Source: a virus. From it: 64,000 bases of DNA. Below the pieces are notes generated by a model. It was not told where the DNA came from and searched no databases. It saw nothing but the letters and a program-made list of their open reading frames with translations. The stretch's first letter is position 1. Each line of letters starts with the position of its first letter. Below, piece after piece: positions 2,271-61,408 of this stretch. The translations under genes and the position numbers were made by a program. Location of the stretch: positions 32,001 through 96,000 of IMG/VR virus record IMGVR_UViG_3300031784_000013. One strand, written 5' to 3'.

Positions 2271-3137
2271 TTACTTGTAAGAGATTTGTGCTGGTGCTAT
2301 AATGAATTGGCTTACTAAATGTGCATCTGATCGATTGTCAAGAATATGTCTTATTTTCAATTCTTTTGCTCTCAGAGGTTCTTTCTTAAATGATCTTGGT
2401 CCGTAGTCCATATTAATTTGATTCACTTCTTTATCAAGAGAAAGTGATTCGCATGTTCTTACAAACAGTGGTATGGATTTATCTTTTACTACAGACCAGA
2501 ATGTATTATACTGATAGAAGTTGTCACTCTTTGTGAAAGTGATTGTCTTACTATTAGTATTCAATATAGGATATTGTAGATAAGAATTCAAATTGTTGAT
2601 TGGTTTTGGAACAAGCTCAAGCACACCTGTTGATTGTTGTCCGTTGTATAAGACAGCTTTGTTAAACCAAACATTGTCAAGTTCTATTCTTGATACATCA
2701 TTACTTATACCATAAGGATCATTGAAATACTTATACACCTTAGTGTAGTCTTTTACATTCTGGAGAATCTCATCTTGATACTGATATGCAAAAGGATATT
2801 CAATGATGTAGGGTTCTATATGCCCATAGAAGATGTTGTAGATGGCATGATCGTTTATGTGTCTCCACATACATGCTGTTTCAATAGTTTCTACAGTAGT
2901 GTTTTGATATTGATCCTGTGTAATTGTTGTAACAGCAAATGATTTTTCATAAGCACATTTACCTTCAGAGGTGATAGTAACTAAGTTAACACTATTGTCT
3001 ACAATATAACTCACACCAATAGACACCTCCTCAAGTGTTACACCTGAGTCAATAACATTTCCATACTCATCTGTGATGGTGAAAGGCCCTGAGTTAGGGC
3101 CTGTCTTGGTTAGCTTTATTGTAATAGTCTTTGACAT
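2271..3137 (-). CDS. Shared N-terminal anchor domain fused to the probable C-terminal part of the tail stabilisation/muzzle protein
   Basis: Likely start MSKTITIKLTKTGPNSGPF resembles the N-termini of 3139..3594 and 11611..13788. The segment from MWRHINDHAIYNIFYGHIEPYIIEY onward resembles what I recall as the C-terminal region of crAss-like tail-stabilisation proteins. Confidence 0.6.
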   Translation of the reverse strand: MSKTITIKLTKTGPNSGPFTITDEYGNVIDSGVTLEEVSIGVSYIVDNSVNLVTITSEGKCAYEKSFAVTTITQDQYQNTTVETIETACMWRHINDHAIYNIFYGHIEPYIIEYPFAYQYQDEILQNVKDYTKVYKYFNDPYGISNDVSRIELDNVWFNKAVLYNGQQSTGVLELVPKPINNLNSYLQYPILNTNSKTITFTKSDNFYQYNTFWSVVKDKSIPLFVRTCESLSLDKEVNQINMDYGPRSFKKEPLRAKELKIRHILDNRSDAHLVSQFIIAPAQISYK

Positions 3138-3138
3138 G

Positions 3139-3594
3139 TTATGGGCATCCAATATTTAATGTTTGCAGAATAGAACCATTGTATGTACCTGGAGCAATGC
3201 AACTTGTTATACTAGCTCCTGTGTATGTGTAATACTTAACTGGTGAACCAGGAAGAACATACTGCTGACCTATACCAAGAGTTGGTACAGTCAATGTAAA
3301 TGCGTTGTCCTCTGGATCACATCCTGCAAGTTGATAATATGTAGGACATGTACTAGTGGTGGTTGTAGTTGTTGGTAAAACAAGTATTATATCTATATAA
3401 TTGCTACATAAACCAGTTGACTTTACACGAACAATTGTAGTTCCTACAGGGGCTAAGGTTGTTGTGTAGCCAGCTAGAAGAGCTGCTTTAGACACACCTG
3501 TTACAAAAGCTGATGTGTAACCATCTACATCAGAGAAGAGGTTAAATGGGCCAGTATCTGTCCCAGCTGTGGTTAATGTTATTGTTATAGTCAT
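3139..3594 (-). CDS. Small virion accessory protein: anchor domain + Thr linker + Cys-containing C-terminal module
   Basis: 151-aa ORF. N-terminal 70 aa closely match the N-terminus of 11611..13788. PTTTTTTSTC linker. Confidence 0.7.
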   Translation of the reverse strand: MTITITLTTAGTDTGPFNLFSDVDGYTSAFVTGVSKAALLAGYTTTLAPVGTTIVRVKSTGLCSNYIDIILVLPTTTTTTSTCPTYYQLAGCDPEDNAFTLTVPTLGIGQQYVLPGSPVKYYTYTGASITSCIAPGTYNGSILQTLNIGCP

Positions 3595-3631
3595 ATTTTT
3601 AATTTTAACAATATTGCCAATTTATTTTATT

Positions 3632-6600
3632 TTAAGATGGCCCCACACAACATTCACTAATACTTCCTGTCACAGGTACTACATCAGCGTAGTCAAATGT
3701 TGGACTTGCAACTTCACCACAAGAAGGTAGCGGTGCACATTGTATATCACTTGAAGCAATCAATATACTACCAGTAGTTCCTGAAGTTATAAATGTAGTT
3801 TGTGTTGAAGCATCGCTATAATGTGCGGTTACATTTATATCAAATGGAGCTGGTATTTCATTTCCACCACAACTATCAAAGAAGATTATTATTGTATCAG
3901 TTGTACTTGCAAAAAAGCCAGGACAATCAAAACATTCACCAGGAGTAGTTTGGATACTTACTATCTCATAACAATATGGACTAGCTGTTGTAGTGGTAGT
4001 GGTAGTGGTAGGTGTTGCAGTTGTAGTTGTTGTGGTGGTAGTAGTAGGTTCTAAAGTAGTAGTTGTTGTTGTAGTTGGCTCTAATGTAGTAGTTGTAGTT
4101 GTGGTGGTTGAAGTTGTAGTTGGAGGTGGGCTGCAATCACACTGTGGATCAAGACAGCCAATACCTTGTGCAAGAAATCCACAATCATCGCTTATCACTT
4201 CAGTAACACATGCTGTAAAGCATAGCCCCTCATCTTGTGATGGGATGTTAAGAGTGATTGTTACACCATTCTCATCTTTATACACAAACGTACATCCACC
4301 AAACGGAGCAGAATCTAACTTATAACACTCATCTGTAAGAGGTGCAGGTGTAGTGGTAGTAGTTGTTGTTGGAGACGGTGTTGTAGTTGTGGTCGTTGTA
4401 GAACTTGTACTAGTGGTAGTAGTAGTTGGTTCTGCTGTCGTTGTTGTTGTAGTTGTAGAACTTGTTGTACTAGTAGTTGTACTTGTTGTACTAGTGGTAG
4501 TTGAAGTTGTACTAGTAGTGGTTGATGTAGAAGTGGAAGTTGTTGTAGATGTTGTAGATGTTGTAAAAGGTCCTACATAACCATCTCCTGCCAAATCACA
4601 ATCTAAAGATACAATTTGTCCAATTCCTGCCAAAGAACAATCTATTTCCTGAACTGTAGCTGTAAAGTTACATTGTAAAGGAGCAACTGTTGTTGTAGTG
4701 GTTGATGTAGAAGACGTTGATGTAGATGTTGTAGTGGTAGTTGGTGGATTTGGAACCAATACACCCACTAGAAAATCAAAGTCTTCACAGCAATTGTTTT
4801 GTCCTGAATAGAAGAAGTTGTTCTCAGCAACATACCAGTTTGGAATGTAACTGTGGAAACTTATCCAACTCTTTGTATTCATGTTGAAAGATAACGTCCA
4901 TGATACGTTACAGAAATAACGTTCATCACTTACACTAACGTTTTGTCTAATAGTTAGACCATTAACAACATTGTTAATGTAGAACTCTTGCTCCACTGGA
5001 TCATATAAAATGTTTTTTGACTTTGGTGCATAGTCCAACTTAGTAATAATCACTCTGTCATATACAGCATCATACACGCCATGAAGTCCTATTCCTTTGA
5101 AATGGTTATCAATATTCACTTCTGGGAAGTTATTATTAATCATGAATGGTAAATGCTCAACAAAGAACCTGTTCATTCCTGATCCAAATGCAGATAAGTC
5201 AACTGCTTCTGTTCCCTGGATCAAGAACACTTGTCCCCGTTTAGCATCAACAGTAACTTGACCTTGAGGAATTTTTAACAACATCTTGTGCTGACTTCCC
5301 ACATATCCAAGATCAGTTTCTGCAAAGTCAATAGGAGGTGCTCCTCTAAACAATAATGGATTACCTACATAAGCAGCTTGAGGGTTACTTGTGTCAATAG
5401 TCAAGAGATTATTGTACATCAATGTCTTATTCTCAAATCTTGCAAGAATAGCTCTGTTCTGAATACCATCAAGAGCCACTAGATTTCCATAGTTCTGTGG
5501 GAAATCAAAATAAGAAATAGCTCTGTAGATAAGCCAGTTGTTCACTCTGTTGTCAGCATCGATGTTTTGAGCATCAGAATAGATAGCTCTGAACGGATAG
5601 TTTGTAAAGCACAATCTACTTTCCCAATCAACAGGTAAGTGAGTAAATGTATTCTCTCTGTTTTGCTTTGAGAATGTTGTATTGTAGTAGTAGGTGTTGT
5701 CTTGTGCAATAGGTACAAAGCTCTGCTGCAACCAGTCATCTGGAATGTCTGTACTAACATGTGGCCAGAAGTCTCCCTCTCTATTGTTAAATGCTTGTCT
5801 TAAATCAGTATTGTAAGAACTTTCGCAATAGAAGTTTGGAATACCATAGGCAAACAAGTAAAAGTAACCATCATAGTATGTAATGGTTGAACTTGGTGTC
5901 ACTTCACCAGAACCACCTGGAGGGAATGTTGTACTAGTAGTAGTGGTGGTTGATGTAGATACAATCACATCTGTTCCCACTTCATTAGGACAATCAAAAT
6001 TATGTGCCTTGTAAGAAATGATGTTTGCCATCACTCCTTGTCCAGGAATGCTGTAGTTCTCGAGAATAGATCTCGCAGAGTGCCAATATCTAGGATAGGC
6101 AACGTTACCTATTTCATCATAGAAGATGTCACTATCATCAGGAGCATTCACTCTATTGTCAATAAAGAATGGAAGCTTGGTCTTGAATGCGAATCTGCTA
6201 ATGAATGTATCACCACCAAACACCGTGGTGGATGGATTAGGTGAGTTAATTATGTATTGATAACCTGTATCAATTGTTTCGTATGAATAGATTTGACCCC
6301 ACTGATTAACAACTGAGTTCTTCAGTGATGCATAATATGAAACAACCTGTATAGGCTCTTCTTTAGCTGGTGTTGAACAGTTTCCTATTTCTGAAATAGT
6401 GAATCTTGATCTATCCGTAACAATACTTGTAATTCCAGAAAGCATGTTAGGACTCTTATCAGGATAAGGAAGAGCTGTAGTGTCTATGTTTGTTTTCATA
6501 AACACAGAGCTTTCTCTGTTCCAGTTGTTGATAGGAAGATCATCTCCTACAGCCTGAACGCCAGGAATCAAATACCTAGCTATGTCAAGCTCTCTTTGCT

Positions 6601-9262
6601 TGATTCCTTGATTGTCAGGAACACCTACACCATAGTTGTAATCAGCAATAGAGTTGAATGAGTATGCATAGTTTCTTCTGGTAATACCATTAATGTAAAT
6701 AGTCAAATAAGACTGATACGCAGTGAACATAGCTGTTGCACTAAATGGTGTAGTAATACCACCAAGTCTTGCAGAACTATCAAGAGCAGCCTTCTGAGCA
6801 GCCTCAGAGAGCAACTTATATTTAGCATTGTCTGCCACCTGAACAAAGTGAGCTTTACCAGTACCAAACATTACACTTTCAAGCTTGAGAATGTCTGCTA
6901 AGAATGGTTGACCAAACGATGTCTCTGGAGAGTTGAAGATTTGTCTGTATCTATTCTCGTCAGTGAAGCCATCTAGTAGCGTTGTGCCACCACAATCTAC
7001 ATCAGATCTCACTTGTCTAATTCTTCTTATTTGAGCATCTGCACAACTCGCTGTACATATAACAGCTGTATCAGCAACAACCTCAACAGTATCTTCTGTA
7101 TCACCAACACTCAATGTTGTTGGTCCTAAGAATCTATCATCATAAGATGCTGTAAACGTTGCTCCTGCTGGAGAATCAAGTGTGTAAACATCATAGTTAG
7201 CATATCCCACTTCTCCTCCGCCAATAATAATTGTTGGTCTACCAACAGCACAAATCACATCTTCTTGTATAGAAGTGTAATCCTTGTAGACAATTTTGTT
7301 GTTCTCGCAAGAATAATACTGCACTCGAGCTAATGGATTACCAGTAATTGGATCTGTACCAAGGCTAGTGATGTAAACATCAAATGGTTCACACTCGCTC
7401 TGGTAAGCATTGTTTGTTGTTGTAAGGAATGGATCTTCGTTGAGATCGTTATATGGATAGTTAGGAAAATAGAATGATTGTTCTTCTCTTGTGTACTCAC
7501 CAACGTTTCTAAGTATTCCCTTAGCTACAATAGACTTATTAACACTTCTATCACCACGCACAATCTTAAATCCTACAACGTCAGATTTCTGATCATCTGT
7601 AAGATTTGATACTTGTATGAGATTTAAGATTTGAGAAGGATCAATCTTTACACCAATAGGAAAAACAGCATCGTTCCCCATCACCATCGCTTGTGGTGCA
7701 GAAAAGACTTTACTCTCGTATATTGGAGAGATGTTTACATCTGGGAACTTGTGATGTCTGATTTTTTGTCCTGCAAGATTTCCCCACACGTCTGTGTTGC
7801 ATGGATATTCTTCAACAGATTCCCAATAGGCAAATTCGCCAAATTGATATGGTCCTTTATAAGCATCATTTGTTGAATATTCTGGAGAGAATCCTGTGAT
7901 AGTAGCTGTGTTATAAATCTTCCAATACGGTGAATCATGTGTGATTGGGTCAGGGTTACCTATAAAGTCTGGATCTGTATCAGGAATTCTTGGAAGCAAT
8001 TGTTCATATCCTGTAATTGCTTTTCCTGGAATATGGAATCCATCTGTTTGTTTTCCGTTCTTCAATAGAAAAACAATCTCAAAAGCATACACTTCATCAC
8101 GAAGATATCCTCTAAGATTCGTTGCGTTTATTTCGTCTGCATAGTTCTCTGTTGCAGGAATTCTCCAAGATTCCCATAGCAACGTAATCTGGTTAGCAAC
8201 TTGTTGATAGTTGATTCTATCAATAGATGTCAACTGATCCCATACAAGAACATCCTGTACAGCAGTTAAGTCTTGAGCAATTTCATAGAATGGAAACTTC
8301 TCAAATATGTCCTGTATTACAAGATTGATTGTTGACTGCCCTGTGTAGGTGATTTGTATATTACCATTGTCAATGAAATATGTACCAACAAGATCAACAG
8401 ATGTTACACCGTTGATAGTTTTGATTACAGCAAGGTTAAAATACTCAAACTGTCCAGATACATCAAGGTTGTCAACATTGACAACAATTGATTTTCCTAC
8501 AGGATAATTGAAGTTGGGTGTTGTGATAAACTCATCAGCAATAGGTGTAGGATTAGTAACTGAGTAGTAGGAAGTAAATGGATTACCAGCTGGATCAGAA
8601 TACTGAATAGCAAACTGATATGTACCTGCAATAAGATTACCTCCACTGATAACATCAATGATTGTTAGTTCAGGAATGTTAAAATTGGGCTGTAGCTTGA
8701 GTTGATTACAATCAAGATCATCTGTATAGATAGGGCTACAAAGAGCACTACCAGATCTAAGGATCTTAGGAATGTCATCAATGTCTAGATATCTTCTAGG
8801 ATTATAGCCATCTGTCCAATAAATCTCTGTATTACAATTGGTAATTCTGTGGACAACTTTGTGAATAGGGTAATCAGTATTAAAGTTTAGGCAAGGAGCA
8901 TTGACAAGAACACGATACTCGCAATCATTATTGTCCATATACCCTATCTGACTGTCTCCTGTAGATGGATTAGTAATGAAGAATATATGTTTGTTTTTCT
9001 CTACAATAAAGTGTTCCCCTATAAGCACAAAACCTTCAGGGAAACGAATACATAATTCGTTACCAGGTTCGTTCTGATAGTTTACAGAATTTGAATCAAA
9101 GTTTTCAACAGCAGCGTTAAGAGCATAAGTTAGTCTACCTTTCTGAACTTGATTTAGAGATTGATCTAAATTCAGTCCCGTAGTGGCATTATTATACTCC
9201 TGTTTAACATTACCTTGATCACCATTGATGATCTGTTTTATTTTGTCTAACTCGTCTGCCAT
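3632..9262 (-). CDS. Tail stabilisation (P22 gp10-like)/muzzle protein with Thr-rich C-terminal extension
   Basis: 1876 aa, directly after the tail tubular gene. Motifs GLNLD..YALNA, YWTDGYNPRRY, GYLRDEVYAFEIVF..FHIPG, IRHHKFP, FGGDTFI and SWISFHSYIP resemble crAss-like Tstab/muzzle proteins. Confidence 0.75.
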   Translation of the reverse strand: MADELDKIKQIINGDQGNVKQEYNNATTGLNLDQSLNQVQKGRLTYALNAAVENFDSNSVNYQNEPGNELCIRFPEGFVLIGEHFIVEKNKHIFFITNPSTGDSQIGYMDNNDCEYRVLVNAPCLNFNTDYPIHKVVHRITNCNTEIYWTDGYNPRRYLDIDDIPKILRSGSALCSPIYTDDLDCNQLKLQPNFNIPELTIIDVISGGNLIAGTYQFAIQYSDPAGNPFTSYYSVTNPTPIADEFITTPNFNYPVGKSIVVNVDNLDVSGQFEYFNLAVIKTINGVTSVDLVGTYFIDNGNIQITYTGQSTINLVIQDIFEKFPFYEIAQDLTAVQDVLVWDQLTSIDRINYQQVANQITLLWESWRIPATENYADEINATNLRGYLRDEVYAFEIVFLLKNGKQTDGFHIPGKAITGYEQLLPRIPDTDPDFIGNPDPITHDSPYWKIYNTATITGFSPEYSTNDAYKGPYQFGEFAYWESVEEYPCNTDVWGNLAGQKIRHHKFPDVNISPIYESKVFSAPQAMVMGNDAVFPIGVKIDPSQILNLIQVSNLTDDQKSDVVGFKIVRGDRSVNKSIVAKGILRNVGEYTREEQSFYFPNYPYNDLNEDPFLTTTNNAYQSECEPFDVYITSLGTDPITGNPLARVQYYSCENNKIVYKDYTSIQEDVICAVGRPTIIIGGGEVGYANYDVYTLDSPAGATFTASYDDRFLGPTTLSVGDTEDTVEVVADTAVICTASCADAQIRRIRQVRSDVDCGGTTLLDGFTDENRYRQIFNSPETSFGQPFLADILKLESVMFGTGKAHFVQVADNAKYKLLSEAAQKAALDSSARLGGITTPFSATAMFTAYQSYLTIYINGITRRNYAYSFNSIADYNYGVGVPDNQGIKQRELDIARYLIPGVQAVGDDLPINNWNRESSVFMKTNIDTTALPYPDKSPNMLSGITSIVTDRSRFTISEIGNCSTPAKEEPIQVVSYYASLKNSVVNQWGQIYSYETIDTGYQYIINSPNPSTTVFGGDTFISRFAFKTKLPFFIDNRVNAPDDSDIFYDEIGNVAYPRYWHSARSILENYSIPGQGVMANIISYKAHNFDCPNEVGTDVIVSTSTTTTTSTTFPPGGSGEVTPSSTITYYDGYFYLFAYGIPNFYCESSYNTDLRQAFNNREGDFWPHVSTDIPDDWLQQSFVPIAQDNTYYYNTTFSKQNRENTFTHLPVDWESRLCFTNYPFRAIYSDAQNIDADNRVNNWLIYRAISYFDFPQNYGNLVALDGIQNRAILARFENKTLMYNNLLTIDTSNPQAAYVGNPLLFRGAPPIDFAETDLGYVGSQHKMLLKIPQGQVTVDAKRGQVFLIQGTEAVDLSAFGSGMNRFFVEHLPFMINNNFPEVNIDNHFKGIGLHGVYDAVYDRVIITKLDYAPKSKNILYDPVEQEFYINNVVNGLTIRQNVSVSDERYFCNVSWTLSFNMNTKSWISFHSYIPNWYVAENNFFYSGQNNCCEDFDFLVGVLVPNPPTTTTTSTSTSSTSTTTTTVAPLQCNFTATVQEIDCSLAGIGQIVSLDCDLAGDGYVGPFTTSTTSTTTSTSTSTTTSTTSTTTSTTSTTTSTTSSTTTTTTTAEPTTTTTSTSSTTTTTTTPSPTTTTTTTPAPLTDECYKLDSAPFGGCTFVYKDENGVTITLNIPSQDEGLCFTACVTEVISDDCGFLAQGIGCLDPQCDCSPPPTTTSTTTTTTTTLEPTTTTTTTLEPTTTTTTTTTATPTTTTTTTTASPYCYEIVSIQTTPGECFDCPGFFASTTDTIIIFFDSCGGNEIPAPFDINVTAHYSDASTQTTFITSGTTGSILIASSDIQCAPLPSCGEVASPTFDYADVVPVTGSISECCVGPS

Positions 9263-9268
9263 AACTTA

Positions 9269-10243
9269 TTAGTTGTTACGTCTCCTACCGTATCTATTAG
9301 TTCTGTTAGGAAGCTCGTACATATTGAACTTATTCAATTGTTGTCTTATTCTACGCTGCTTAGTCCAGGAATCTTGCTTCTTAATCTCAATATCTGCCAT
9401 GATGAACGCTTCGTCAGAAAGTTGTTTGTAATATACAAGCTTTTGTTGAAGTTGATTGAATGTTTCATCATTGGTTTGATTGACAAGCATCTCAAACACT
9501 TTGTACTTGATGAAGTGTTCTAGATATTCTCTAATACGATAATTGTCAGGAATAAGCTGGTTTCCAAGACTGTCGTAATCTTGAGCATAGAAAATGAGAT
9601 GGACAATACCATTTCTGAAATTCGTAACGAATTTGTTGTCTCTAATATCGAATGAGTCATAAGTAGATGATCCTGGTGTAAAGTTGTTCAATGGTGCAAC
9701 TCCTTGTCCGTACATCTCCCAGTTCTCTGTATAGTTAACATCACATTGCTTTCTTGCAGAGATGTTTCCTGGCTTCAAGAGATACATTTTTTGGTAGGAC
9801 ATTGCCACCTCATTATTTGTCTTATAGACAGTTTGCATAAACTCAGGCATACAAGATCCATCACATCCTACATTACCACAGCAAGGGCTTGGAATAGCGC
9901 AGTCTGTAGTAATTGGACTCACTTGTATAGTGGTTTGAGTTGCTGCTTGAGAATAGAATGAATTAGCTGTCTGATATGGAAAACCATTTACAGCAGTACA
10001 CATCCACGCCTCTCTAACAGCGTAAAAGTTATCTGGTAGTCTTGCTTCAAAGTTATCAACAACAAGAGCTGTCTCAGCTATTACGTATGTAGCTCTTCCC
10101 AGCTTTCTAAGACACTTGTCTAGATAGGTGGGGAATAACAAATCATCTATAGCACCTGTGTCAAAATAGCTCTTAAGCTCTTCCTTAACAGTGGAGTAGA
10201 TTGGATCTGGACTTACGAAGTTAAATTTATAGTAATAGCTCAT
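9269..10243 (-). CDS. Tail tubular/ring protein (P22 gp4-like)
   Basis: 324 aa with FVTNFRNGIVHLIFY...LIPDN..IREYLEHFIKYK. Lies between the IHF-like and muzzle genes, the conserved crAss-like order. Confidence 0.65.
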   Translation of the reverse strand: MSYYYKFNFVSPDPIYSTVKEELKSYFDTGAIDDLLFPTYLDKCLRKLGRATYVIAETALVVDNFEARLPDNFYAVREAWMCTAVNGFPYQTANSFYSQAATQTTIQVSPITTDCAIPSPCCGNVGCDGSCMPEFMQTVYKTNNEVAMSYQKMYLLKPGNISARKQCDVNYTENWEMYGQGVAPLNNFTPGSSTYDSFDIRDNKFVTNFRNGIVHLIFYAQDYDSLGNQLIPDNYRIREYLEHFIKYKVFEMLVNQTNDETFNQLQQKLVYYKQLSDEAFIMADIEIKKQDSWTKQRRIRQQLNKFNMYELPNRTNRYGRRRNN

Positions 10244-10245
10244 CT

Positions 10246-10725
10246 TTAATTAAGATTCCATGTTGCGTAAATATGTTGATACTTCTCATCAGACTTAATG
10301 TACTTGGTAATCAATCTGGAGTTATCCCTTGTAGGTTTAAACTTCCAGAAAGCAGAAAACTTAAATCTGCATGATCTTCTAAACCACTTCCATCCAAAGA
10401 AATATCCTTCTGTATGGTAGTTAAAGTTGTAGATGTATTTTCCTTTCTCTCTAGTTTTTTTCCAGTCAATTGGTAGGTTGATATACTCTTTACCATCAAC
10501 CACTGTAACTCTCACTCTTTTCTTTTTATTCACTGCAAACTCTCCTAAGCCATTTGGAAGTTTTATCTTCTCTCCTGTCTCAAGCATGTGTTCAGTGAAC
10601 ATTTTATTAAACCCATAGACAATCTTCTTCCAGTCTTCGAAGGAGATGTCTATTTCAGGTTTCTCACTCTTGAAATTCTTGTAGTTTTCTTTTGAGGCAC
10701 TTCGCCAGTCTTTCGCTACTCTCAT
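10246..10725 (-). CDS. HU/IHF-like DNA-binding protein (crAss-like structural module)
   Basis: MLETGEKIKLPNGLGEFAVNKKK is an HU-like motif; IDWKKT..GKYIYNFNYHTEGY tail; conserved position. Confidence 0.65.
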   Translation of the reverse strand: MRVAKDWRSASKENYKNFKSEKPEIDISFEDWKKIVYGFNKMFTEHMLETGEKIKLPNGLGEFAVNKKKRVRVTVVDGKEYINLPIDWKKTREKGKYIYNFNYHTEGYFFGWKWFRRSCRFKFSAFWKFKPTRDNSRLITKYIKSDEKYQHIYATWNLN

Positions 10726-11450
10726 CTAAACTGTGGTGAGTTTGGTGATTGACCATCTATTCCATCATCAGTCATATCAGTCTTTAGATTGAAATAGCTT
10801 TGAAGTAGTTTCTGTGATGTTAAATCAAGCACTTGTTTCTCTAGATATCCTGGAAGAGCAAACTCATTGTCAAGAGGATTCTTGCAAAGTTGATCAGTGG
10901 TGTAGCTTGGAGTTCCGCATCCGCACTCTGGGTACATGATGTCATTAGGGACATCTTCCTCAAACAGAGCTACAAACCTAACAGCCTGTAGTGCTGGATT
11001 GCTGACATAAAGATAACCATTTGAAATCCAGAAATACTCTTCTTTTCTGATAACAGGAAGTTTTAATAGATTGAGGTAACGATTGACAGTTATCTCCTTC
11101 ATCTTCTTACCCTGTCCAGACATTGCATTTATTGAATAAACACCTTGAATGACATATTGATAATTTCCTTCAGATATTCTAGGAAGTTGATACGTTGATC
11201 TAGCAACAGAACAAGGATCTGCATAATTGCAGCATTCTGAGATGGGAACCTCACACATTTCCAGACATGGAATAGTGGTAAAAAGTGTATCTGTCGCCCA
11301 GAGTTTTCTTAGATTGGTTTCTCTTTTTATCAACAATAGTGCATTATTCCGCACTTCAGAGGCAATTGCTCTATCTGTAATGAGACTATCTGTTGATATG
11401 ATCTTGTGCGTTGCACGCACGTCAGATACTAATTTTCTTAATGTTGACAT
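10722..11450 (-). CDS. Conserved structural (tail ring) protein
   Basis: Probable start MSTLRKLVSDVR at 11450. YFWISNGYLY and EFALPGYL motifs; lies in the tail module. Confidence 0.55.
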   Translation of the reverse strand: MSTLRKLVSDVRATHKIISTDSLITDRAIASEVRNNALLLIKRETNLRKLWATDTLFTTIPCLEMCEVPISECCNYADPCSVARSTYQLPRISEGNYQYVIQGVYSINAMSGQGKKMKEITVNRYLNLLKLPVIRKEEYFWISNGYLYVSNPALQAVRFVALFEEDVPNDIMYPECGCGTPSYTTDQLCKNPLDNEFALPGYLEKQVLDLTSQKLLQSYFNLKTDMTDDGIDGQSPNSPQFR

Positions 11451-11610
11451 TTTGTGTTCCTGATTTCCAGAGTTATATGTACTCAAATTTAATCATTTTT
11501 CCAAATAAAAACTCCCAGACAATAAATGCCTGGGAGAAACCCTACAAAACCAATAAAGTAGAGTTTATTTGAATTTAGTTTATAGAAGTGTGATAAAAGC
11601 ATAATTTAAT

Positions 11611-13788
11611 CTATATGCCTCCATCTGTTACAGTCCAGTTGTTTGGAGCTCCAGTTAATACGTTTCTACCAGCTTGACCTGCCAACGTGTATTTAGCTGT
11701 TCCAAAACTTATATTCAAATTAGGTTGTAGTGTAAGTAAACTCCACCCATTGTAAATAGCATCTAAGTTAGTAGCTGAAAACGTTAAATTGGTCTTACTT
11801 CCCATGAAATTAGAGAAATTTCCAACGTTACTCACGTTCCAATTTCCTATGTTCTGGTTAAATGCTGTAGCATTAAAGAACATATATTGCATATCTGTAA
11901 CATTACCTACATCCCAAATTCCAATATTTTGGTTAAATGCAAATGCACTTTGGAACATAAAGAACATACTAATCACATTACTTACATCCCATCCGCTTAT
12001 GTCTTGATTAAAAGATAAAGCTGATTTGAACATATTCCCCATCTGTGTCACATTGCTTACATTCCAACCACTTATATCTTGGTTAAAAACTAAAGCACCG
12101 TTAAACATGCCCCCCATATTTGTTACACTAATTACATTCCAGCCACCAATATTTTGGTTAAACACTACGGCATCATGAAACATGTTTGCCATATTTGTAA
12201 CACTGCTTACGGTCCAACTTCCAATGTTTTGATTAAATACTGAAGCACCATAAAACATAAGTGACATATCAGTTACTCCTGAAACATCCCAAGAAGTTAT
12301 ATTTCCATTAAATGCTGTATTTTGGTAAAACATACTTGACATGTTCGTAACGCTTGATACGTCCCAACTATTCAAACTTTGATTGAAACTATTTGCTGCA
12401 TTAAACATACCAGCCATGTTTGTAACATTGGAAACATTCCAAGAATTAATATTCTGATTAAATGCGGATGCCGCTGCAAACATATTATTCATATTTGTAA
12501 CACTACCAACATTCCAACCAGTTATGTTTCCATCAAAAGAAACGGCAGAATTAAACATAGCTTGCATGTTTGTTACACCGCTTACGTTCCAACTATTTAA
12601 GTTTTGGTTAAATGAGTTAGCAGTATTAAACATAGAAATCATATTAGTAACATTACTCACGTCCCAACCACCAATATTTTGATTAAACGCAATTGCAGTA
12701 CTGAACATAGATTGCATAGTTGTTACACTACTTACATCCCAACCACTTATATTTTGATTAAAGACATAAGCAGCATTAAACATAAAAGACATATTAGTAA
12801 CACTACTTACATCCCAATTACTTATGTCTCCATTAAAGGAAGTTGCAGATGTAAACATTTGCTGCATAGTTGTTACACTACTTACATCCCAGGTGTTTAG
12901 ATTTTGATTGAATGCAAGTGCAGTAAGAAACATAAGTCTCATGTTTGTAACATTACTAACATCCCAATTTCCTATGGGTTGGTTAAAAGCTATTGCAAGC
13001 CCAAACATTTGCTCCATGTTAGTAATAGTACTAGTATTCCATGAATTAACATTATTAATGGTAGTTAAACTAGTACAATCTGCAAACATTCTGGTTAAAA
13101 TAGTCATTGCTGACAAATTTGGGGTGTCTGTAACAGCTGATAGATCTAAATTAGCACATCCACTAAATATACCATTAGAGTAGTTACCTAAGTTTACATT
13201 ACCAAAAGATGTAATGCTTAATAACTTTTTGCGATCTCCTCCATTCTCAAAAGCAAACCCAGAACATGTTCCAGTAATAGTAATTGTATAATCTCCAGAA
13301 GAGACGTATGTGTGAGTAGTTTCAGCTTGATTCCAAACAGTGATAACATTATTGTTTCCATCTCCCCAATTTACAGTAAAGTTATAAACACCACCATTTT
13401 TTAATGGAAGCTTTACTTGGTCTGAGTTAGTTGATCCAACATAAGTATTTGTAGTTCTCCAAGTTGAAATAAAAGCAGTTGGCGATGCTGTAGTACTAGT
13501 AGTGGTAGTGGTGCTGCTGGTAGTACTAGTTGTAGTGGTGCTAGTCGTGCTAGTGCTAGTAGTAGTAGTTGTAGCACCTACCACTACATCAATGTAGTTT
13601 GTACATACTCCTGTACTAATTATTCTCACTGTTGTTGTACCAGCTGGAGCAATTACAGAATATCCTGCTAACAGGGTTGCTTTACTTACTCCTGTATCAA
13701 ATGCAGATACAAATCCATCAACGTTTGAATAAAGGTTGAATGGTCCTGCGTCTACTCCAGCTGATGTTAGTGTTATGAATACGTACAT
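11611..13788 (-). CDS. Putative adhesin/receptor-binding protein: anchor domain + Thr linker + PKD-like domain + DUF285/BspA-like repeats
   Basis: FTVNWGDG...THTY..SGDYTITITG is PKD-like, followed by ~16-17 tandem 25-aa repeats W(D/N)VSxVTxMxxMFxxAxxFNQ. Confidence 0.85.
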   Translation of the reverse strand: MYVFITLTSAGVDAGPFNLYSNVDGFVSAFDTGVSKATLLAGYSVIAPAGTTTVRIISTGVCTNYIDVVVGATTTTTSTSTTSTTTTSTTSSTTTTTSTTASPTAFISTWRTTNTYVGSTNSDQVKLPLKNGGVYNFTVNWGDGNNNVITVWNQAETTHTYVSSGDYTITITGTCSGFAFENGGDRKKLLSITSFGNVNLGNYSNGIFSGCANLDLSAVTDTPNLSAMTILTRMFADCTSLTTINNVNSWNTSTITNMEQMFGLAIAFNQPIGNWDVSNVTNMRLMFLTALAFNQNLNTWDVSSVTTMQQMFTSATSFNGDISNWDVSSVTNMSFMFNAAYVFNQNISGWDVSSVTTMQSMFSTAIAFNQNIGGWDVSNVTNMISMFNTANSFNQNLNSWNVSGVTNMQAMFNSAVSFDGNITGWNVGSVTNMNNMFAAASAFNQNINSWNVSNVTNMAGMFNAANSFNQSLNSWDVSSVTNMSSMFYQNTAFNGNITSWDVSGVTDMSLMFYGASVFNQNIGSWTVSSVTNMANMFHDAVVFNQNIGGWNVISVTNMGGMFNGALVFNQDISGWNVSNVTQMGNMFKSALSFNQDISGWDVSNVISMFFMFQSAFAFNQNIGIWDVGNVTDMQYMFFNATAFNQNIGNWNVSNVGNFSNFMGSKTNLTFSATNLDAIYNGWSLLTLQPNLNISFGTAKYTLAGQAGRNVLTGAPNNWTVTDGGI
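11800..13060 (-). repeat. 75-nt (25-aa) tandem repeat array encoding DUF285-type solenoid
   Basis: Repeated WDVSNVTNM..MF..A..FNQNI units with 75-bp periodicity. Confidence 0.85.
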
Positions 13789-13810: not shown

Positions 13811-14317
13811 TTAACAAGAAGTTGCTGCACTTAGCACTCCACCACTTGATACTGTCCACTTAGTACTTAAGTTGGTTATGTAAATATATCCACTGTAAGT
13901 AGATGTTAGTCCACTATTAGTGTACAATACAACGCCATTAGCTAATACAGGAGCAGATGTATACAATGGAGATAACAATACAGCTGATGTACATGGGCTA
14001 GCAAGATTTACCAATCCACCTAAATACCAAGCATAGTAAGGAGCTCCTGTGGTAGTAGATGTACTGGTACTACTTGTTGATGTACTAGTTGTTGATGGAG
14101 GAGGTGGCGTAGGAGTGATAATCTCTTTGATTGCCAAAATCTGTGCATCAATTATTTGAAGAATTGTTGTCAAGTCTTCACAACTCTGTATTCCTGTTCC
14201 TGGAAGATTAGGACCAACGTATTTAACTTGCGATGTTGATAGCAAATCATTTCCAGGATCACTACATCCACAAGGATCAAGTGATCCGCATCCTGAGCAT
14301 TTATTATTTTGTACCAT
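13811..14317 (-). CDS. Cys-rich virion accessory/fibre-associated protein with Pro/Thr/Ser linker
   Basis: Likely start MVQNNKCSGCG. The YVGPNLPGTGI..DLTTILQ segment resembles YTGYGIPALGISNGDTL in the adjacent fibre gene. PTPPPPSTTSTSTSSTSTSTTT linker. Confidence 0.6.
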   Translation of the reverse strand: MVQNNKCSGCGSLDPCGCSDPGNDLLSTSQVKYVGPNLPGTGIQSCEDLTTILQIIDAQILAIKEIITPTPPPPSTTSTSTSSTSTSTTTGAPYYAWYLGGLVNLASPCTSAVLLSPLYTSAPVLANGVVLYTNSGLTSTYSGYIYITNLSTKWTVSSGGVLSAATSC

Positions 14318-14321
14318 GATA

Positions 14322-15464
14322 TTATGGGATGTACATGATGTAATAAGCACCAATTGTAGGCTGGATGTTGATATGGCTCAATCCACCACCTGTTGCATTA
14401 ACAACTACACTAGTTGTAACATTCACTGTAGCATTATTAGTTGGTCCCCTGTCAGCACTTCCTGATATACTTTTTAATCTATATGAAAATCTATCACCAG
14501 AAAGACCAGATACATCATAATCTGTAACAAGAGGAGATGTAGATGTTAGATCCCCAATATTTGTAGAACCATCTTTAGCAATAAAGTGTGAGTGTGGGTC
14601 AGCAGTGGATGTAGCTGTTGCTGTGTGAGTGTGAGAAGGGATTTGATTAGCTGTAAGAGTGACATTGTTCAAACCTTGTACACTATTCAATGAGTAACTT
14701 GGGTTACCTGCTGTTGAAGGATTCACAATAGAACTCATTGGAATACTTCCAGCCATGCTTCCATCTGTAGTTCCTACAGCAACACGTCCTCTTTTATCTG
14801 GTGTTCCATTACTTCCGTTACACAAAAATACGTCAATGAATTGACCAGATCCTGCTCCTGTAACATCAAAGCCTGTAAGAGGTCCATAATATTCATACGC
14901 AACGTATGGTACCATGTTATTCTTGTACAAGTTGGATGGTGCAATGCTGTTCAAATAGGCTTGAATAAGCGCATTCAAATCAGCAAGCTTAACATAATTG
15001 GTGTCAACTTCAATCTCAAATGCTGCTAAGTCAGCTGCTGTTGAGCAGAGCTTGTTGATAGCTGCTTGAAGAATAGCATGTGTATCAGACGATGCTGTTA
15101 CACCTGTTAAACATCCAATTGTGTAATCAGCGTTAAGGGTGGCGAGCGTTGCATCGATTGCTGTAACATTGGTTTTTAAAGCGCAAATTGATTGCAACAA
15201 TGCTGAGATAACATCATTAAGTGTAATGTCACCAGACACTGGGAGAAACCCACTCACCAATGGGCACAGATCAGCTGGATCAATGACAGGAATAATGCCA
15301 TTACCAGTAGACAGATCTAAGATGAAATTTGCAATTTGTAATTCAACAAAAGCAAGTGTGTCCCCATTGGAAATACCAAGGGCAGGAATGCCGTATCCTG
15401 TATATCTTACGCACTGATCAGATATGATTTCAGTGCATCCGTTAAAGCAATTAGAACAGCTCAT
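14322..15464 (-). CDS. Tail fibre with C-terminal tail-collar/short-fibre domain
   Basis: FLCNGSNGTPDKRGRVAVG...VTLTANQIPSHTH...GGGLSHINIQP is the collar/HxH metal-binding fibre signature. Confidence 0.75.
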   Translation of the reverse strand: MSCSNCFNGCTEIISDQCVRYTGYGIPALGISNGDTLAFVELQIANFILDLSTGNGIIPVIDPADLCPLVSGFLPVSGDITLNDVISALLQSICALKTNVTAIDATLATLNADYTIGCLTGVTASSDTHAILQAAINKLCSTAADLAAFEIEVDTNYVKLADLNALIQAYLNSIAPSNLYKNNMVPYVAYEYYGPLTGFDVTGAGSGQFIDVFLCNGSNGTPDKRGRVAVGTTDGSMAGSIPMSSIVNPSTAGNPSYSLNSVQGLNNVTLTANQIPSHTHTATATSTADPHSHFIAKDGSTNIGDLTSTSPLVTDYDVSGLSGDRFSYRLKSISGSADRGPTNNATVNVTTSVVVNATGGGLSHINIQPTIGAYYIMYIP

Positions 15465-15731
15465 TTATTTATATTTTAGAAGTTTTACTTTACTAGCTAT
15501 TTGACATACGCTATATGGTTTAGCGTAATCTGGGTTACAATACTTATATGTCAAGATTCTTCTGTAATTAAGAAGATCTATCATAGTTGTATATGGGACA
15601 GGCATATTCAATGCAAACACAGTGTTGTTGTAAAGATTCTTTGCAACTTCTGTAATCTTACATTCGATATCCTGTAACAATGTTGGGATATCAACACACT
15701 CAGGGCAAGAAGTTAATCTAGGTTGTAACAT
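15465..15731 (-). CDS. Small structural-module protein
   Basis: Probable start MLQPRLTSCPEC at 15731; 88 aa, tightly packed with neighbours. Confidence 0.6.
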   Translation of the reverse strand: MLQPRLTSCPECVDIPTLLQDIECKITEVAKNLYNNTVFALNMPVPYTTMIDLLNYRRILTYKYCNPDYAKPYSVCQIASKVKLLKYK

Positions 15732-15733
15732 GT

Positions 15734-15865
15734 CTATTGATTTTGAGTGGTGGGTGGTTGTACTGTGAGTTCTTCTTTCTTCTTGTTTGCACAGAATGCG
15801 CACATCCCATTTTTGAGATTACATCCACATCCTACACTTGCCCCACAGCTTGAACACTTTGCCAT
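15734..15865 (-). CDS. 43-aa Cys-rich peptide (not in ORF track)
   Basis: Manual translation MAKCSSCGASVGCGCNLKNGMCAFCANKKKEELTVQPPTTQNQ*; exactly fills the gap between flanking genes. Confidence 0.65.
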   Translation of the reverse strand: MAKCSSCGASVGCGCNLKNGMCAFCANKKKEELTVQPPTTQNQ

Positions 15866-15866
15866 A

Positions 15867-16436
15867 TTAATAATAAGTTGTTACGGTTGCGTAATTATTT
15901 CCTGAACATCCACAGTTGTTTCGTAAGAAGTTGTTCAGCATTTTGTCAGCTTGAAGATACAATCTATTTGCTTCAACCGCAGCACAATTATTTGCTGCTG
16001 CTATAGCACCATTAATAAAGAATGATATAGTTGTTAGCTCCACCTTAGATTGCGTCTTAATTGCTCTATCACACTCCATCATGTCAAGTTTCATGAATGC
16101 CTCATCGAACTTCTCTTGAAGTCTTTCAGTACGCATTATAGTTCTCTCAACATAGTTTACGTTTGCTGGTGCTACTGAATACTTCAGATAGTAAATACCA
16201 TCAGGGAGAGGGTCATTTATTCCAACTGGCGTAATTCCTAAATTAGAAGATGAAAACACATTCACCTGATTAACAGTAAATGGAACGTTTACTATCCCAA
16301 AGTTTGGAACATTAACCTCCAAGTTTGGTGCAGAGACAGCTGGTGGAGTAGTTGGGTATGTAGATGCGTCAGCAACAGCCATTGTTAGCGTGTTGTATGT
16401 TGGAACTACAATAATGTCTAGTTGCAGAGTTGGCAT
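15867..16436 (-). CDS. Conserved structural protein (Ig-like N-terminus, helical C-terminus)
   Basis: 189 aa with LPDGIYYLKYSVAP motif; downstream of the capsid block. Confidence 0.55.
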   Translation of the reverse strand: MPTLQLDIIVVPTYNTLTMAVADASTYPTTPPAVSAPNLEVNVPNFGIVNVPFTVNQVNVFSSSNLGITPVGINDPLPDGIYYLKYSVAPANVNYVERTIMRTERLQEKFDEAFMKLDMMECDRAIKTQSKVELTTISFFINGAIAAANNCAAVEANRLYLQADKMLNNFLRNNCGCSGNNYATVTTYY

Positions 16437-19556: not shown

Positions 19557-21110
19557 TTAGAACTGTGGAATTTCTTCGATTAGAACAGTTCGTGACAAGT
19601 CTTCGATGAATACATCGCAACGATCTTGCATCCAGATTTCATAGCCTGGGAATTTGTTGGCAGAAGACATACCCTGAGACTTAGCAAAGCCAAGGTGGTG
19701 TCTACGTCCATCGATATAACCCCAAGTCATAGAAGGAGCACCTTTCATTCTCACTTCACGAATGTTGTTCACCATAGAGCCATCAGACATTGGAGACACA
19801 TCAAATACCATGAACACTGGAGTTGACTTCTTGTTCTGTCCAAATTCCAAGTTGGATTGAGGAAGATCAAGTTCTTTCAAGTGGATAAGTTCCACACGAC
19901 CAGTTTCACGAGTAACCATTGCATCGAATGCAAAGTTATAAGTGATGTGTTGTCCTTCTCCTTGCATGTATCTGTTTCCAGAATCTGCCATGAAGGTAAG
20001 GCCAGAGTTCAATGCATCAGTTTTCAAAGCCTGCTGGAACACGTCAAAGCCAGCTTCGTTAGTGTACATTTTCACTCGTCTGTCCTTAACATCCACACGT
20101 CTGTAGAACAAGTCTCCAAACACGGAACGGATAAGGTTTGCAGAGAATTCTCCACGGTTGTATTGTACCAAGTTACCATTGTTACGCATTCTGTGATAAA
20201 CACCAGCAGATACACGCTTCAATTCTTGCTTAGATCCATTAGTTTTTACAGTGCCTGGCTTAGACCAGATCATTCGCTTCACCTTAAGTTCAAGCATTGC
20301 TTTTCTCAACATGAATTCTACGAATGGCTCCCACTTAACATCGTTACGAGTTAGAGGAAGTTGGTTTCTACGCTGAGGAGCATACACCAAGATATCAAGA
20401 GGCTTACCAGAAGCATCACGCATAGTCTTGTCATCAGCCCATGCAGTAACTTGGTGCTCAAAACCATATCCAGAACCAAGAGATTCGAACATAGTGATTT
20501 TCTCACCAAGTCTTGGTAAACCAAGAAGGTCCTGATCAAATTCACCAATTGCAGCATCAACTAGTTCTAGTTCAATACCAATTTGCAAGAAGGTAGGGCT
20601 TACAAAGTCTAGGATTGGGTTGTCAGACACCAATGTAAAGGTGTAAAGGAAACCTGCATTCCAAGGAACTGGATCTTTTACAGCATACCATCTTGGACCA
20701 TACTGACGAGAACCTACAGAAACGATAGCGTTCTTAGAGAATTCGTTAGTGTCCAATACCACCTGAAACTCCTGACCATCGATACCTGGCTTGCTCAACT
20801 CAGCAGTGGAGCTAGGGATGTCAATGATTTTAGGGAATTTGTAAGGAACTTGAACGTCCCACTTCCAAGAATCGCTGTTGTTGTCGATGTAGTAAGGAGT
20901 GGACTTGTTGATCATATCAAGGAAGTCGTTGCTGTACAATGAGCTCTGAGTGTACAAGGAGATGATCTTCTTGTCATAGTCAGCTGGCTCAGTGGAGTGA
21001 AACGACTCCAAGTGATTTGAATCAGTTAGCTTTCCTACGGCACGTTTGTCCATTGACGCAACGCGAGCATAGGTAAAGCCTGTTAAACCTGGGATTGTTT
21101 GAATTGCCAT
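19557..21110 (-). CDS. Major capsid protein
   Basis: 517 aa, two genes downstream of portal, followed by a terminator; size and order match crAss-like MCP. Confidence 0.8.
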   Translation of the reverse strand: MAIQTIPGLTGFTYARVASMDKRAVGKLTDSNHLESFHSTEPADYDKKIISLYTQSSLYSNDFLDMINKSTPYYIDNNSDSWKWDVQVPYKFPKIIDIPSSTAELSKPGIDGQEFQVVLDTNEFSKNAIVSVGSRQYGPRWYAVKDPVPWNAGFLYTFTLVSDNPILDFVSPTFLQIGIELELVDAAIGEFDQDLLGLPRLGEKITMFESLGSGYGFEHQVTAWADDKTMRDASGKPLDILVYAPQRRNQLPLTRNDVKWEPFVEFMLRKAMLELKVKRMIWSKPGTVKTNGSKQELKRVSAGVYHRMRNNGNLVQYNRGEFSANLIRSVFGDLFYRRVDVKDRRVKMYTNEAGFDVFQQALKTDALNSGLTFMADSGNRYMQGEGQHITYNFAFDAMVTRETGRVELIHLKELDLPQSNLEFGQNKKSTPVFMVFDVSPMSDGSMVNNIREVRMKGAPSMTWGYIDGRRHHLGFAKSQGMSSANKFPGYEIWMQDRCDVFIEDLSRTVLIEEIPQF

Positions 21111-61402: not shown

Positions 61403-61408
61403 CAATAA

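What the first reader, a model, noticed from the sequence alone, without database searches (positions are those of the whole stretch)
2271..13788. Modular virion-decoration system: shared ~70-aa anchor domain + poly-Thr linker + interchangeable head
Seen: three separate tail-region genes begin with the same small domain. 11611..13788 starts MYVFITLTSAGVDAGPFNLYSNVDG..TGVSKATLLAGY..TTTVRIISTGVCTNYID. 3139..3594 starts MTITITLTTAGTDTGPFNLFSDVDG..TGVSKAALLAGY..TTIVRVKSTGLCSNYID. A more diverged copy starts 2271..3137 (TITIKLTKTGPNSGPFTITD..SGVT..VTITSEGKC). In the first two a Thr tract follows and then unrelated heads (PKD+DUF285 solenoid; a small Cys module). In the third the domain is fused to a probable core muzzle fragment. 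Inference: the domain is a docking module, conceptually like cohesin-dockerin, that recruits variable adhesins to the tail tip on flexible mucin-like stalks, giving a plug-and-play host-range system distinct from classical fibres.
Basis: partly seen in the sequence, partly recalled or inferred. Interest (0 to 1): 0.85.

Follow-up and report, generated by a model that had tools for sequence, protein, structure and literature searches.

The report
Shared anchor domain, swappable phage heads
A crAss-like phage puts the same small N-terminal beta-sandwich on three virion proteins, one of them a split-off piece of the tail-tip muzzle, and the family has over 1,800 head variants in metagenomes, so it is probably an undescribed form of the known anchor-plus-variable-binder design of phage fibres.

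Summary
The window is part of a 111-kb crAss-like phage. Three of its genes start with one ~70-aa domain, which I call DOM: P1 (11611-13788), P2 (3139-3594) and P3 (2271-3137).

- **Similarity:** P1 and P2 are 65% identical. P3 is 30-33% identical to them and passes reciprocal profile tests.
- **Fold:** DOM is predicted as a 7-strand beta-sandwich (pLDDT 95). It has no Pfam, PHROG or PDB family.
- **Family size:** a DOM profile finds 1,871 protein clusters, with DOM at residue 1 in nearly all of the 150 best hits listed. A Thr/Ser linker and a very diverse, mostly Cys-rich head usually follow.
- **Copy number:** related phages carry 3-6 copies, at two fixed hot-spots.
- **Head exchange:** the P1 head is a DNA cassette. 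It is bounded by the linker and by a point 27 nt after the stop codon. Close relatives have no head, or a different head, at this site.
- **Split muzzle:** P3 residues 80-288 are the C-terminal domain of the muzzle protein. That domain is contiguous in phages Fpv1 and Lbo-JY46, which lack DOM. Here the muzzle gene is split exactly at that junction.

Docking to the virion, the docking site and a host-range role are inferred, not shown. The design matches known modular receptor-binding proteins, so I rate it a new variant of a known kind. Earlier notes of this scan on the same genome had flagged the split and the Thr tracts.

The parts
13573..13788 (-). DOM of P1 (residues 1-72)
   Evidence: 65% identical to the P2 DOM. 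Profile hit at E 7.7e-33. In the tree it belongs to the DOM lineage of the position upstream of Ring 2.
13489..13572 (-). Poly-Thr/Ser linker of P1 (residues 73-100)
   Evidence: A 28-residue T/S run. DNA homology to relatives L004, L005 and L008 ends at window 13559, about 5 codons into this tract.
11585..13558 (-). Exchangeable head cassette of P1: most of the linker plus the DUF285/BspA-like leucine-rich-repeat head and its stop codon
   Evidence: This stretch is an indel relative to L004, L005 and L008, whose flanks are 75-96% identical. Homology resumes 27 nt after the stop codon. DUF285 at E 4.5e-165. Cellular homologues are 40-54% identical.
3379..3594 (-). DOM of P2 (residues 1-72)
   Evidence: The AlphaFold model is a 7-strand beta-sandwich with one short helix, pLDDT 95.3.
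3139..3378 (-). P2 linker (8-residue T/S run) and small head with 4 Cys
   Evidence: No Pfam or PHROG hit. Proteins with 86-89% identical DOMs carry other heads and are 204 and 245 aa long.
2928..3137 (-). DOM of P3 (diverged copy, residues 1-70)
   Evidence: Same predicted fold. P3-type DOMs form a separate deep clade with 100/100 support.
2271..2900 (-). Muzzle C-terminal domain carried by P3 (residues 80-288)
   Evidence: Aligns to residues 1453-1654 of the 1654-aa Lbo-JY46 muzzle (E 2e-23) and to residues 1590-1783 of the 1783-aa Fpv1 gp30 (E 1.6e-13). Fpv1 gp30 carries Pfam crAss_MUZ_C at 1597-1706. A profile of this domain hits crAss001 gp44 best among that phage's virion proteins, at 1232-1281 of 1371.
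4802..9262 (-). Muzzle protein body (residues 1-1487)
   Evidence: Pfam crAss_MUZ at E 1.1e-31. Residues 845-1487 align to Lbo-JY46 muzzle residues 854-1454, which ends exactly where the P3 match begins.
3632..4801 (-). Muzzle C-terminal extension (residues 1488-1876): eight of the muzzle's nine Thr/Ser tracts, with small Cys-rich modules between them
   Evidence: It has no counterpart in the unsplit muzzles. Its length varies among relatives, whose muzzle genes are 1585-2256 aa.
9269..10243 (-). Tail ring protein 1 (context)
   Evidence: Pfam CrAss_Ring_1 at E 1.2e-9.
10722..11486 (-). Tail ring protein 2 (context). DOM hot-spot A lies directly upstream of it.
   Evidence: Pfam CrAss_Ring_2 at E 7.8e-16. 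Synteny across relatives.

Best explanation
The three genes belong to a large, undescribed family of virion accessory proteins in an environmental clade of crAss-like phages.

Each protein starts at residue 1 with a ~70-aa beta-sandwich (DOM). In most members a Thr/Ser-rich linker and a swappable head follow. Heads are usually small and Cys-rich, and occasionally large, such as the DUF285 repeat protein of P1.

The one member kept in every genome is P3. It consists of DOM plus the C-terminal domain of the muzzle protein, whose gene is split in this clade. P3 must therefore assemble into the hexameric tail-tip muzzle, which places DOM on the muzzle surface.

The most likely mechanism is that DOM is the virion-attachment module. 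It would bind a conserved site on or near the muzzle, possibly the P3 DOM itself. Its invariant Cys might form a disulfide there. The heads would hang on extended linkers as outward-facing binding modules. They are exchanged by recombination between the linker and the 3' end of the gene.

Shown: the family, the fold, the strict N-terminal position, head exchange, the split muzzle, and the co-occurrence of DOM with the split.

Inferred: docking, its site, the disulfide, and what the heads bind.
For: Family and architecture:
- Three copies in the genome.
- 1,871 clusters at E<=1e-3 and 1,399 at E<=1e-10, with DOM at residues 1-72 in nearly all of the best 150.
- 124 of 146 have a T/S run after DOM.
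- 141 heads fall into 74 BLAST clusters, 58 of them singletons, with a median of 4 Cys. Only 9 scattered Pfam families occur among 145 proteins.
- Proteins that consist of DOM plus a short Thr tail (77-97 aa) are conserved in relatives, so DOM works without a head.
- G42 and C63 are invariant in the 46-sequence alignment.
- DOM lineages are specific to gene position while the heads differ within a lineage.

Head exchange:
- The P1 head cassette has breakpoints in the linker and 27 nt after the stop codon. The locus has three states among close relatives: no head, a 216-aa protein, and the 725-aa protein here.

Split muzzle:
- Muzzle residues 845-1487 and P3 residues 80-288 align to adjoining parts of the Lbo-JY46 muzzle.
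- crAss_MUZ_C is present in Fpv1 gp30.
- All 6 genomes checked have the split and exactly one P3-type gene.
- Fpv1 and Lbo-JY46 have an unsplit muzzle and no DOM.

Context:
- The genes sit between fibre-like genes, Ring 1, Ring 2, the muzzle and cargo genes.
- crAss001 fibres dock through N-terminal segments, and its tail is cross-linked by disulfides (PMC10172136).
Against: - No interaction was predicted or measured.
- There is no proteomic or structural evidence that P1 or P2 are in the virion, and no cultured phage carries DOM.
- If the muzzle offers one site per subunit and the P3 DOM fills it, 2-5 other DOM proteins would have to compete for it or bind elsewhere.
- Hot-spot A lies next to fibre and ring genes rather than the muzzle gene, so another docking site is equally possible for those copies.
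- The fold is a generic FN3/Ig-like sandwich (Z<=5.8), which in other phages is often a displayed domain rather than an anchor.
- The P3 C-domain could not be modelled (pLDDT<50).
Confidence: 0.55

Rival explanations
1. DOM anchors the head-bearing proteins to the capsid rather than the tail. They would be head fibres or decoration proteins, like crAss001 gp21 and gp29 or T4 Hoc. P3's DOM would be a diverged relative with a separate role on the muzzle.
For: crAss001 head fibres bind hexon pockets through short N-terminal segments. The authors expect unrecognised analogues in other crassviruses (PMC10172136). P3-type DOMs are a deep separate clade. Many copies per virion would suit small, weak binders on stalks.
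Against: No DOM gene lies next to the capsid genes; all lie at the two tail hot-spots. DOM co-occurs with the split muzzle. The gp21 and gp29 anchors are 38-58-residue segments, not a beta-sandwich.
Confidence: 0.15
2. DOM is mainly a self-associating building block. The 3-6 paralogues would assemble with each other into a fixed hetero-oligomeric collar around the tail. Subunits that are DOM only would fill positions, and only some subunits would carry heads.
For: Relatives keep a conserved, ordered set of 4-5 DOM genes, including two DOM-only ones. Each has its own orthologous lineage. A single invariant Cys could give inter-subunit disulfides like those of the crAss001 hub.
Against: The window's subclade manages with three copies, and its heads turn over quickly. 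That fits independent docking better than a fixed stoichiometric assembly. No oligomer prediction was possible.
Confidence: 0.15
3. DOM is not an anchor. It would be a stable N-terminal starter module that is copied along with promoter-proximal sequence when genes duplicate. The DOM-head proteins would then be soluble factors released at lysis, or DOM itself would be the binding domain.
For: Ig-like domains on phages are often accessory binders (my own knowledge: Fraser et al. 2006). Nothing shows that P1 and P2 are in virions. The C-terminal third of the DOM profile resembles a repeat of a 2733-aa protein with about 26 near-identical tandem repeats.
Against: Conserved DOM-only proteins would then have no obvious use. 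The strict position at residue 1, the strong conservation across 1,871 clusters, the location in the structural module and the absence of signal peptides all argue for a structural contact.
Confidence: 0.1

Closest known systems
Modular receptor-binding proteins with a conserved N-terminal anchor and an exchangeable C-terminal specificity module (e.g. Klebsiella phage depolymerase RBPs, PMC8262889)
   Same: Several proteins of one phage share a conserved N-terminal part. The C-terminal part is swapped horizontally, with the breakpoint just after the conserved part.
   Different: The DOM sequence family matches none of the described anchors (no Pfam or PHROG hit). The connector is a poly-Thr linker rather than a trimeric coiled or beta-helical shaft. 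Most heads are 50-150-aa Cys-rich modules rather than enzymes. DOM-only forms exist. Trimerisation is unknown.
crAss001 head fibres gp21 and gp29 and tail fibre gp22 (PMC10172136)
   Same: They come from a phage of the same broad group. The fibres attach through N-terminal segments and present small C-terminal domains, some of them Ig-like. The tail parts are disulfide-linked.
   Different: Those anchors are short segments (26-58 residues) that are not shared between the proteins. No sequence similarity to DOM was found. crAss001 has an unsplit muzzle.
Crassvirus muzzle protein (Pfam crAss_MUZ and crAss_MUZ_C; crAss001 gp44)
   Same: The window's 1876-aa protein and residues 80-288 of P3 together cover an unsplit muzzle.
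   Different: Here the gene is split about 200 residues before the end. The first part gained a Thr-linked module tail and the second part gained DOM. I found no description of such a split in the papers searched.
Cohesin-dockerin
   Same: The idea of one docking module that recruits varied cargo.
   Different: No partner is identified. Dockerin is a calcium-binding helical module and cohesin a larger beta-sandwich (my own knowledge). Neither appeared among the listed fold matches.
Ig-like or FN3-like accessory domains on phage virions (T4 Hoc type; my own knowledge)
   Same: A small beta-sandwich of FN3/Ig type on structural proteins (Z 5-5.8).
   Different: Those domains are usually internal, C-terminal or tandem, and are the displayed part. 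DOM is single, always at residue 1, and is the conserved part.

Membership tests
Crassvirus muzzle protein, C-terminal domain (Pfam PF25729 crAss_MUZ_C), for P3 residues 80-288 | Homology to the C-terminal domain of muzzle proteins | tested here: met
   There is no direct Pfam hit at E<=1. However, P3 80-288 aligns to the last ~200 residues of Lbo-JY46 (E 2e-23) and of Fpv1 gp30 (E 1.6e-13). Fpv1 gp30 scores 52.7 bits against PF25729, whose cut-off is 27. A profile of the domain hits crAss001 gp44 at 1232-1281 as the best of 22 proteins.
Crassvirus muzzle protein (Pfam PF25731 crAss_MUZ), for 3632-9262 | Match above the curated cut-off, and position after Ring 1 | tested here: met
   110.3 bits against a cut-off of 27. 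Ring 1 and Ring 2 lie upstream.
DUF285 (PF03382), for the P1 head | Repeated DUF285 units | tested here: met
   E 4.5e-165 with 5 matched stretches. Cellular homologues are 40-54% identical.
Described phage fibre or tailspike N-terminal anchor families, by sequence model | A Pfam or PHROG model match to DOM | tested here: not met
   No Pfam family for P2 or P3 at E<=0.1. No PHROG family for P2 or P3 at E<=0.01. The 46 DOM sequences scanned at E<=10 give only single chance hits. No PDB sequence match.
FN3 / Ig-like beta-sandwich, for DOM | Fold similarity clearly above background | tested here: inconclusive
   Best Z is 5.8 (rmsd 2.7, 69 aligned residues), and many FN3 domains score Z 4.5-5.6. 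Foldseek gives nothing at E<=0.001. This is a common arrangement and does not establish a relationship.
Cohesin-dockerin | A cohesin or dockerin fold and a cognate partner | tested here: inconclusive
   Neither fold is among the listed matches.
crAss001 tail hub proteins THA and THB | Homology to gp38 or gp39 | tested here: not met
   The DOM profile at maximum sensitivity gives no match to gp38 or gp39. gp38 is annotated as TPR-containing, which means helical. By size and position only, the window's 189-aa and 112-aa genes are the likelier hub equivalents.

The most novel reading that the evidence does not exclude
In this phage clade a surface junction of the tail-tip muzzle has become a docking port. 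Splitting the gene left a DOM 'socket' on each of the six muzzle subunits. Paralogous DOM 'plugs' would then recruit, in trans, any of more than a thousand hypervariable mini-binder heads. This would be a natural display scaffold whose specificity is rewired by cassette exchange and not by changes to a fibre.
Probability: 0.25. Interest if true: 0.8.

Novelty: new variant of a known kind. Interest (0 to 1): 0.6.

Why it matters
These phages are common in environmental metagenomes: P3 has 2,675 homologues and DOM has 1,871 clusters. Yet no protein of the family carries an informative name or annotation in the sources searched.

If DOM is the anchor, the family marks which proteins of this clade face the outside world. 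It would also provide a very large natural catalogue of small binding modules on a common scaffold. That is useful for host and habitat prediction; one head is an ice-binding-like domain.

The split muzzle is a clear example of a core tail protein divided at a defined junction. It also gives a structural hypothesis, DOM on the muzzle, that cryo-EM or complex prediction can test directly.

Tried and rejected
- **Close DNA or protein matches in cultured phages:** none for the region or for P2.
- **PDB sequence searches:** nothing usable for P2, P3, the muzzle or the P3 profiles.
- **Fold searches of DOM:** only generic sandwiches. T9SS C-terminal domains appear at Z 4.6-5.0 and are not distinctive. 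The viral library returned only five uncharacterised proteins of Virus NIOZ-UU157, which are members of the same family.
- **AlphaFold of whole P3:** the C-domain failed, with pLDDT<50.
- **ESM Atlas:** only unnamed viral clusters.
- **DOM in cellular genomes:** The single-sequence scan found none, but it needs exact short peptide words, so its sensitivity is low.
- **One Cys-module superfamily uniting the heads:** jackhmmer linked only 3 of 144, so I make no such claim.
- **DOM derived from an internal muzzle Ig domain:** there is no DOM-like segment in the Fpv1, Lbo-JY46 or window muzzle bodies.
- **DOM proteins as tail-hub equivalents:** rejected.
- **The phage tRNA-Thr serving the Thr tracts:** ACA is not enriched in the tracts.


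Full report
**Setting.** The window is bases 32001-96000 of a 111,142-base IMG/VR virus record that is about 96% complete.

The minus strand from 27121 down to 2 carries a crAss-like structural module. PHROGs identify the large terminase, the portal and the major head protein. Pfam identifies CrAss_Ring_2 (10722-11486), CrAss_Ring_1 (9269-10243) and crAss_MUZ (3632-9262), all above their curated cut-offs.

The 159-aa gene between the two ring genes resembles crAss001 gp42. Downstream of 2271 lies a long protein that matches a PHROG tail-protein family. By position after the muzzle gene it corresponds to the crAss001 cargo genes.

**The observation.** P1 (11611-13788, 725 aa), P2 (3139-3594, 151 aa) and P3 (2271-3137, 288 aa) start with the same domain, which I call DOM.

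- P1 and P2 are 65% identical over 71 residues, E 5e-28.
- P3 is 30-33% identical to them, with pairwise E about 1e-4.
- These are the only three copies in the window and in the whole genome.
- A profile of 42 homologues that excludes all P3-type sequences finds P3 at E 3e-5. It is the only additional hit among 333 window ORFs. A profile of P3-type domains finds P1 and P2 at E 1e-7.

AlphaFold with a 46-sequence alignment gives a 73-residue sandwich of seven strands and one short helix, with pLDDT 95.3. The first ~80 residues of P3 fold with the same order of elements.

**What the domain is.**

- *No described family.* DOM has no Pfam or PHROG family and no PDB sequence match.
- *Generic fold matches.* Fold searches return only FN3/Ig-like sandwiches, with best Z 5.8 and nothing from Foldseek at E<=0.001.
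- *Only same-family hits among viral models.* The only clear hits are five uncharacterised proteins of one metagenomic virus, NIOZ-UU157. They are 77, 77, 287, 417 and 939 aa long and belong to the same family.
- *Conserved residues.* In the 46-sequence alignment G42 and C63 are invariant, and G11, G15, P16, L39 and P49 are nearly so.

**Size and shape of the family.**

- *Cluster count.* The DOM profile, scored against 1.84 billion representatives, finds 1,871 clusters at E<=1e-3 and 1,399 at E<=1e-10. In nearly all of the best 150 the match starts at residue 1-4.
- *Linker.* 124 of 146 have a run of at least four Thr/Ser shortly after DOM.
- *Heads.* The heads of 141 of them fall into 74 BLAST clusters, 58 of which are singletons. 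They have a median of 4 Cys and a median length of 118 residues including the linker.
- *Head families.* Only nine Pfam families occur among 145 proteins, each in one protein. They include an ice-binding-like domain, NHL/SGL propellers and Lcl_C.
- *Headless forms.* Proteins that are only DOM plus a short Thr tail (77-97 aa) are frequent and conserved.

**Genomic organisation in relatives.** In 36 related viral contigs DOM genes occupy two hot-spots.

- Hot-spot A lies after a fibre-like gene pair and before Ring 2. A ~414-aa gene sometimes intervenes.
- Hot-spot B lies directly after the muzzle gene and before the cargo genes.

Near-complete genomes carry 3, 5, 6, 3, 3 and 3 copies. A tree of 46 DOMs shows position-specific lineages with good support. 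P3-type DOMs form a deep separate clade with 100/100 support. The alignment is short, so only the starred forks should be trusted.

**Heads are exchanged as cassettes.** DNA of the window around P1 was compared with three relatives, L004, L005 and L008.

- It aligns at 75-96% identity up to window position 13559, about five codons into the Thr tract.
- It aligns again from 11584, which is 27 nt after the stop codon.
- The 1,974 bases between these points are absent or replaced in the relatives.

The locus has three states: no head (83-84 aa), a different head in a 216-aa protein, and the DUF285 head seen here. The DUF285 head has 40-54% identical homologues in many cellular genomes, including Flavobacterium, other Bacteroidota and several archaeal MAGs. 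It was therefore probably taken from the cellular pool.

For P2, proteins whose DOM is 86-89% identical carry other heads and are 204 and 245 aa long.

**The split muzzle.** P3 residues 80-288 match the extreme C-terminus of two unsplit muzzle proteins:

- Flavobacterium phage Fpv1 gp30, residues 1590-1783 of 1783.
- Leptolyngbya phage Lbo-JY46, residues 1453-1654 of 1654.

The window's muzzle residues 845-1487 align to Lbo-JY46 residues 854-1454. The two window proteins therefore abut on the unsplit protein to within a residue or two.

Fpv1 gp30 carries Pfam crAss_MUZ and also crAss_MUZ_C, the latter at residues 1597-1706. A profile of the P3 C-domain hits crAss001 gp44 best among 22 crAss001 virion proteins, at residues 1232-1281 of 1371. 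That hit is weak but in the right place.

Between the two halves the window has three inserted pieces:

- a 389-residue muzzle tail of eight Thr/Ser tracts and Cys-rich modules;
- the P2 gene;
- the DOM of P3.

All six genomes examined have the split and exactly one P3-type gene. P3 is highly conserved, with 2,675 homologues; nearly all of the 120 listed are 288 aa long. Fpv1 and Lbo-JY46 have no DOM at E<=1, whereas the same search found 3-6 copies in the clade genomes.

From the published topology of gp44, the residues after 1021 form the later propeller blades. The split-off piece is therefore probably part of the propeller. This is an inference and I did not test it.

**Mechanism.**

- *Why the conserved part should be the contact.* It is always at residue 1, it functions without a head, and it sits in the structural module. 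It is therefore the part most likely to contact a conserved virion site. The variable part would face outward.
- *Where it probably sits.* P3 ties one DOM physically to the muzzle, so the muzzle is the best guess for the site. DOM may bind the muzzle body, or the diverged P3 DOM may be the partner of the others.
- *The invariant Cys.* It may form a disulfide, as reported for crAss001 tail parts.

Capsid docking, a self-assembling DOM collar and a non-virion role remain open.

Thr tracts also occur in the 180-aa and 392-aa virion proteins. They are the clade's general linker and not something specific to DOM proteins. There is no signal peptide, so periplasmic glycosylation is unlikely; that point rests on my own knowledge.

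**Comparison with what is known.** The conserved-anchor and variable-tip logic is that of modular receptor-binding proteins (PMC8262889) and of the N-terminally docked fibres of crAss001 (PMC10172136).

What is new:

- the DOM family itself;
- its scale;
- the poly-Thr stalks carrying mini-heads;
- the headless forms;
- the link to a split muzzle gene.

Literature searches found no description of any of these. I therefore class it as a new variant of a known kind.

**Earlier notes of this scan.** Notes on the same genome had proposed the split muzzle and the Thr tracts on several virion proteins. I tested both here, and both hold.

Noticed in passing
window 3632-4801 (muzzle residues 1488-1876): The muzzle protein ends in eight Thr/Ser tracts separated by small Cys-rich modules. 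The tail tip therefore carries stalked modules in cis as well. The extension varies in size among relatives, whose muzzle genes are 1585-2256 aa.
   Followed up: partly
window 13811-14353 and 14322-15464: The 180-aa and 380-aa genes upstream of P1 both start with Cys-rich N-termini that, by eye, share a [VK][RK]Y[TV]G...P.[LT]GI motif. This may be a second shared N-terminal module. BLAST did not link them at E<=1. The C-terminus of the 380-aa protein matches PHROG tail-fibre families. The 180-aa protein also has a Thr/Ser tract.
   Followed up: no
window 15465-16436: The 189-aa and 112-aa genes match crAss001 tail hub proteins gp38 (215 aa) and gp39 (114 aa) in size and gene position only; no sequence match was found. 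In relatives the 112-aa gene's homologue grows to 950-1200 aa.
   Followed up: partly
protein P0276 (2733 aa, from the representative search): A 2733-aa protein with about 26 near-identical tandem repeats of ~100 aa matches DOM profile positions 48-72. The shared motif is P-x-G-T-x-x-V-R-V ... C. By eye the repeats recall SprB-type repeats of Bacteroidota adhesins, which I did not test. This could hint at a distant origin of DOM from a cell-surface Ig-like repeat, or it could be chance summed over the repeats.
   Followed up: no
heads of family members (alignment A3): Single members carry an ice-binding-like domain (E 1.2e-48), NHL/SGL propellers, Lcl_C and an intein-splicing match. The ice-binding head suggests cold habitats for part of the clade.
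   Followed up: no
window 61331-61403: The only tRNA gene in the window is tRNA-Thr (anticodon TGT). ACA is the commonest Thr codon overall, but it is not enriched in the Thr tracts: 39% in the tracts against 48% elsewhere.
   Followed up: yes
window 19557-21110 (residues 5-18) and 2-2269 (residues 479-492): The N-terminus of the major head protein shares a 14-residue stretch, 71% identical, with an internal segment of the cargo-like protein. The match is E 0.033 within the window set.
   Followed up: no
window 3135-3141: The ATG of P3 (3137-3135) lies one base after the stop codon of P2 (3141-3139). In two relatives the P3-type gene starts 3 nt after the muzzle stop codon. This fits translational coupling of the split parts.
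   Followed up: no
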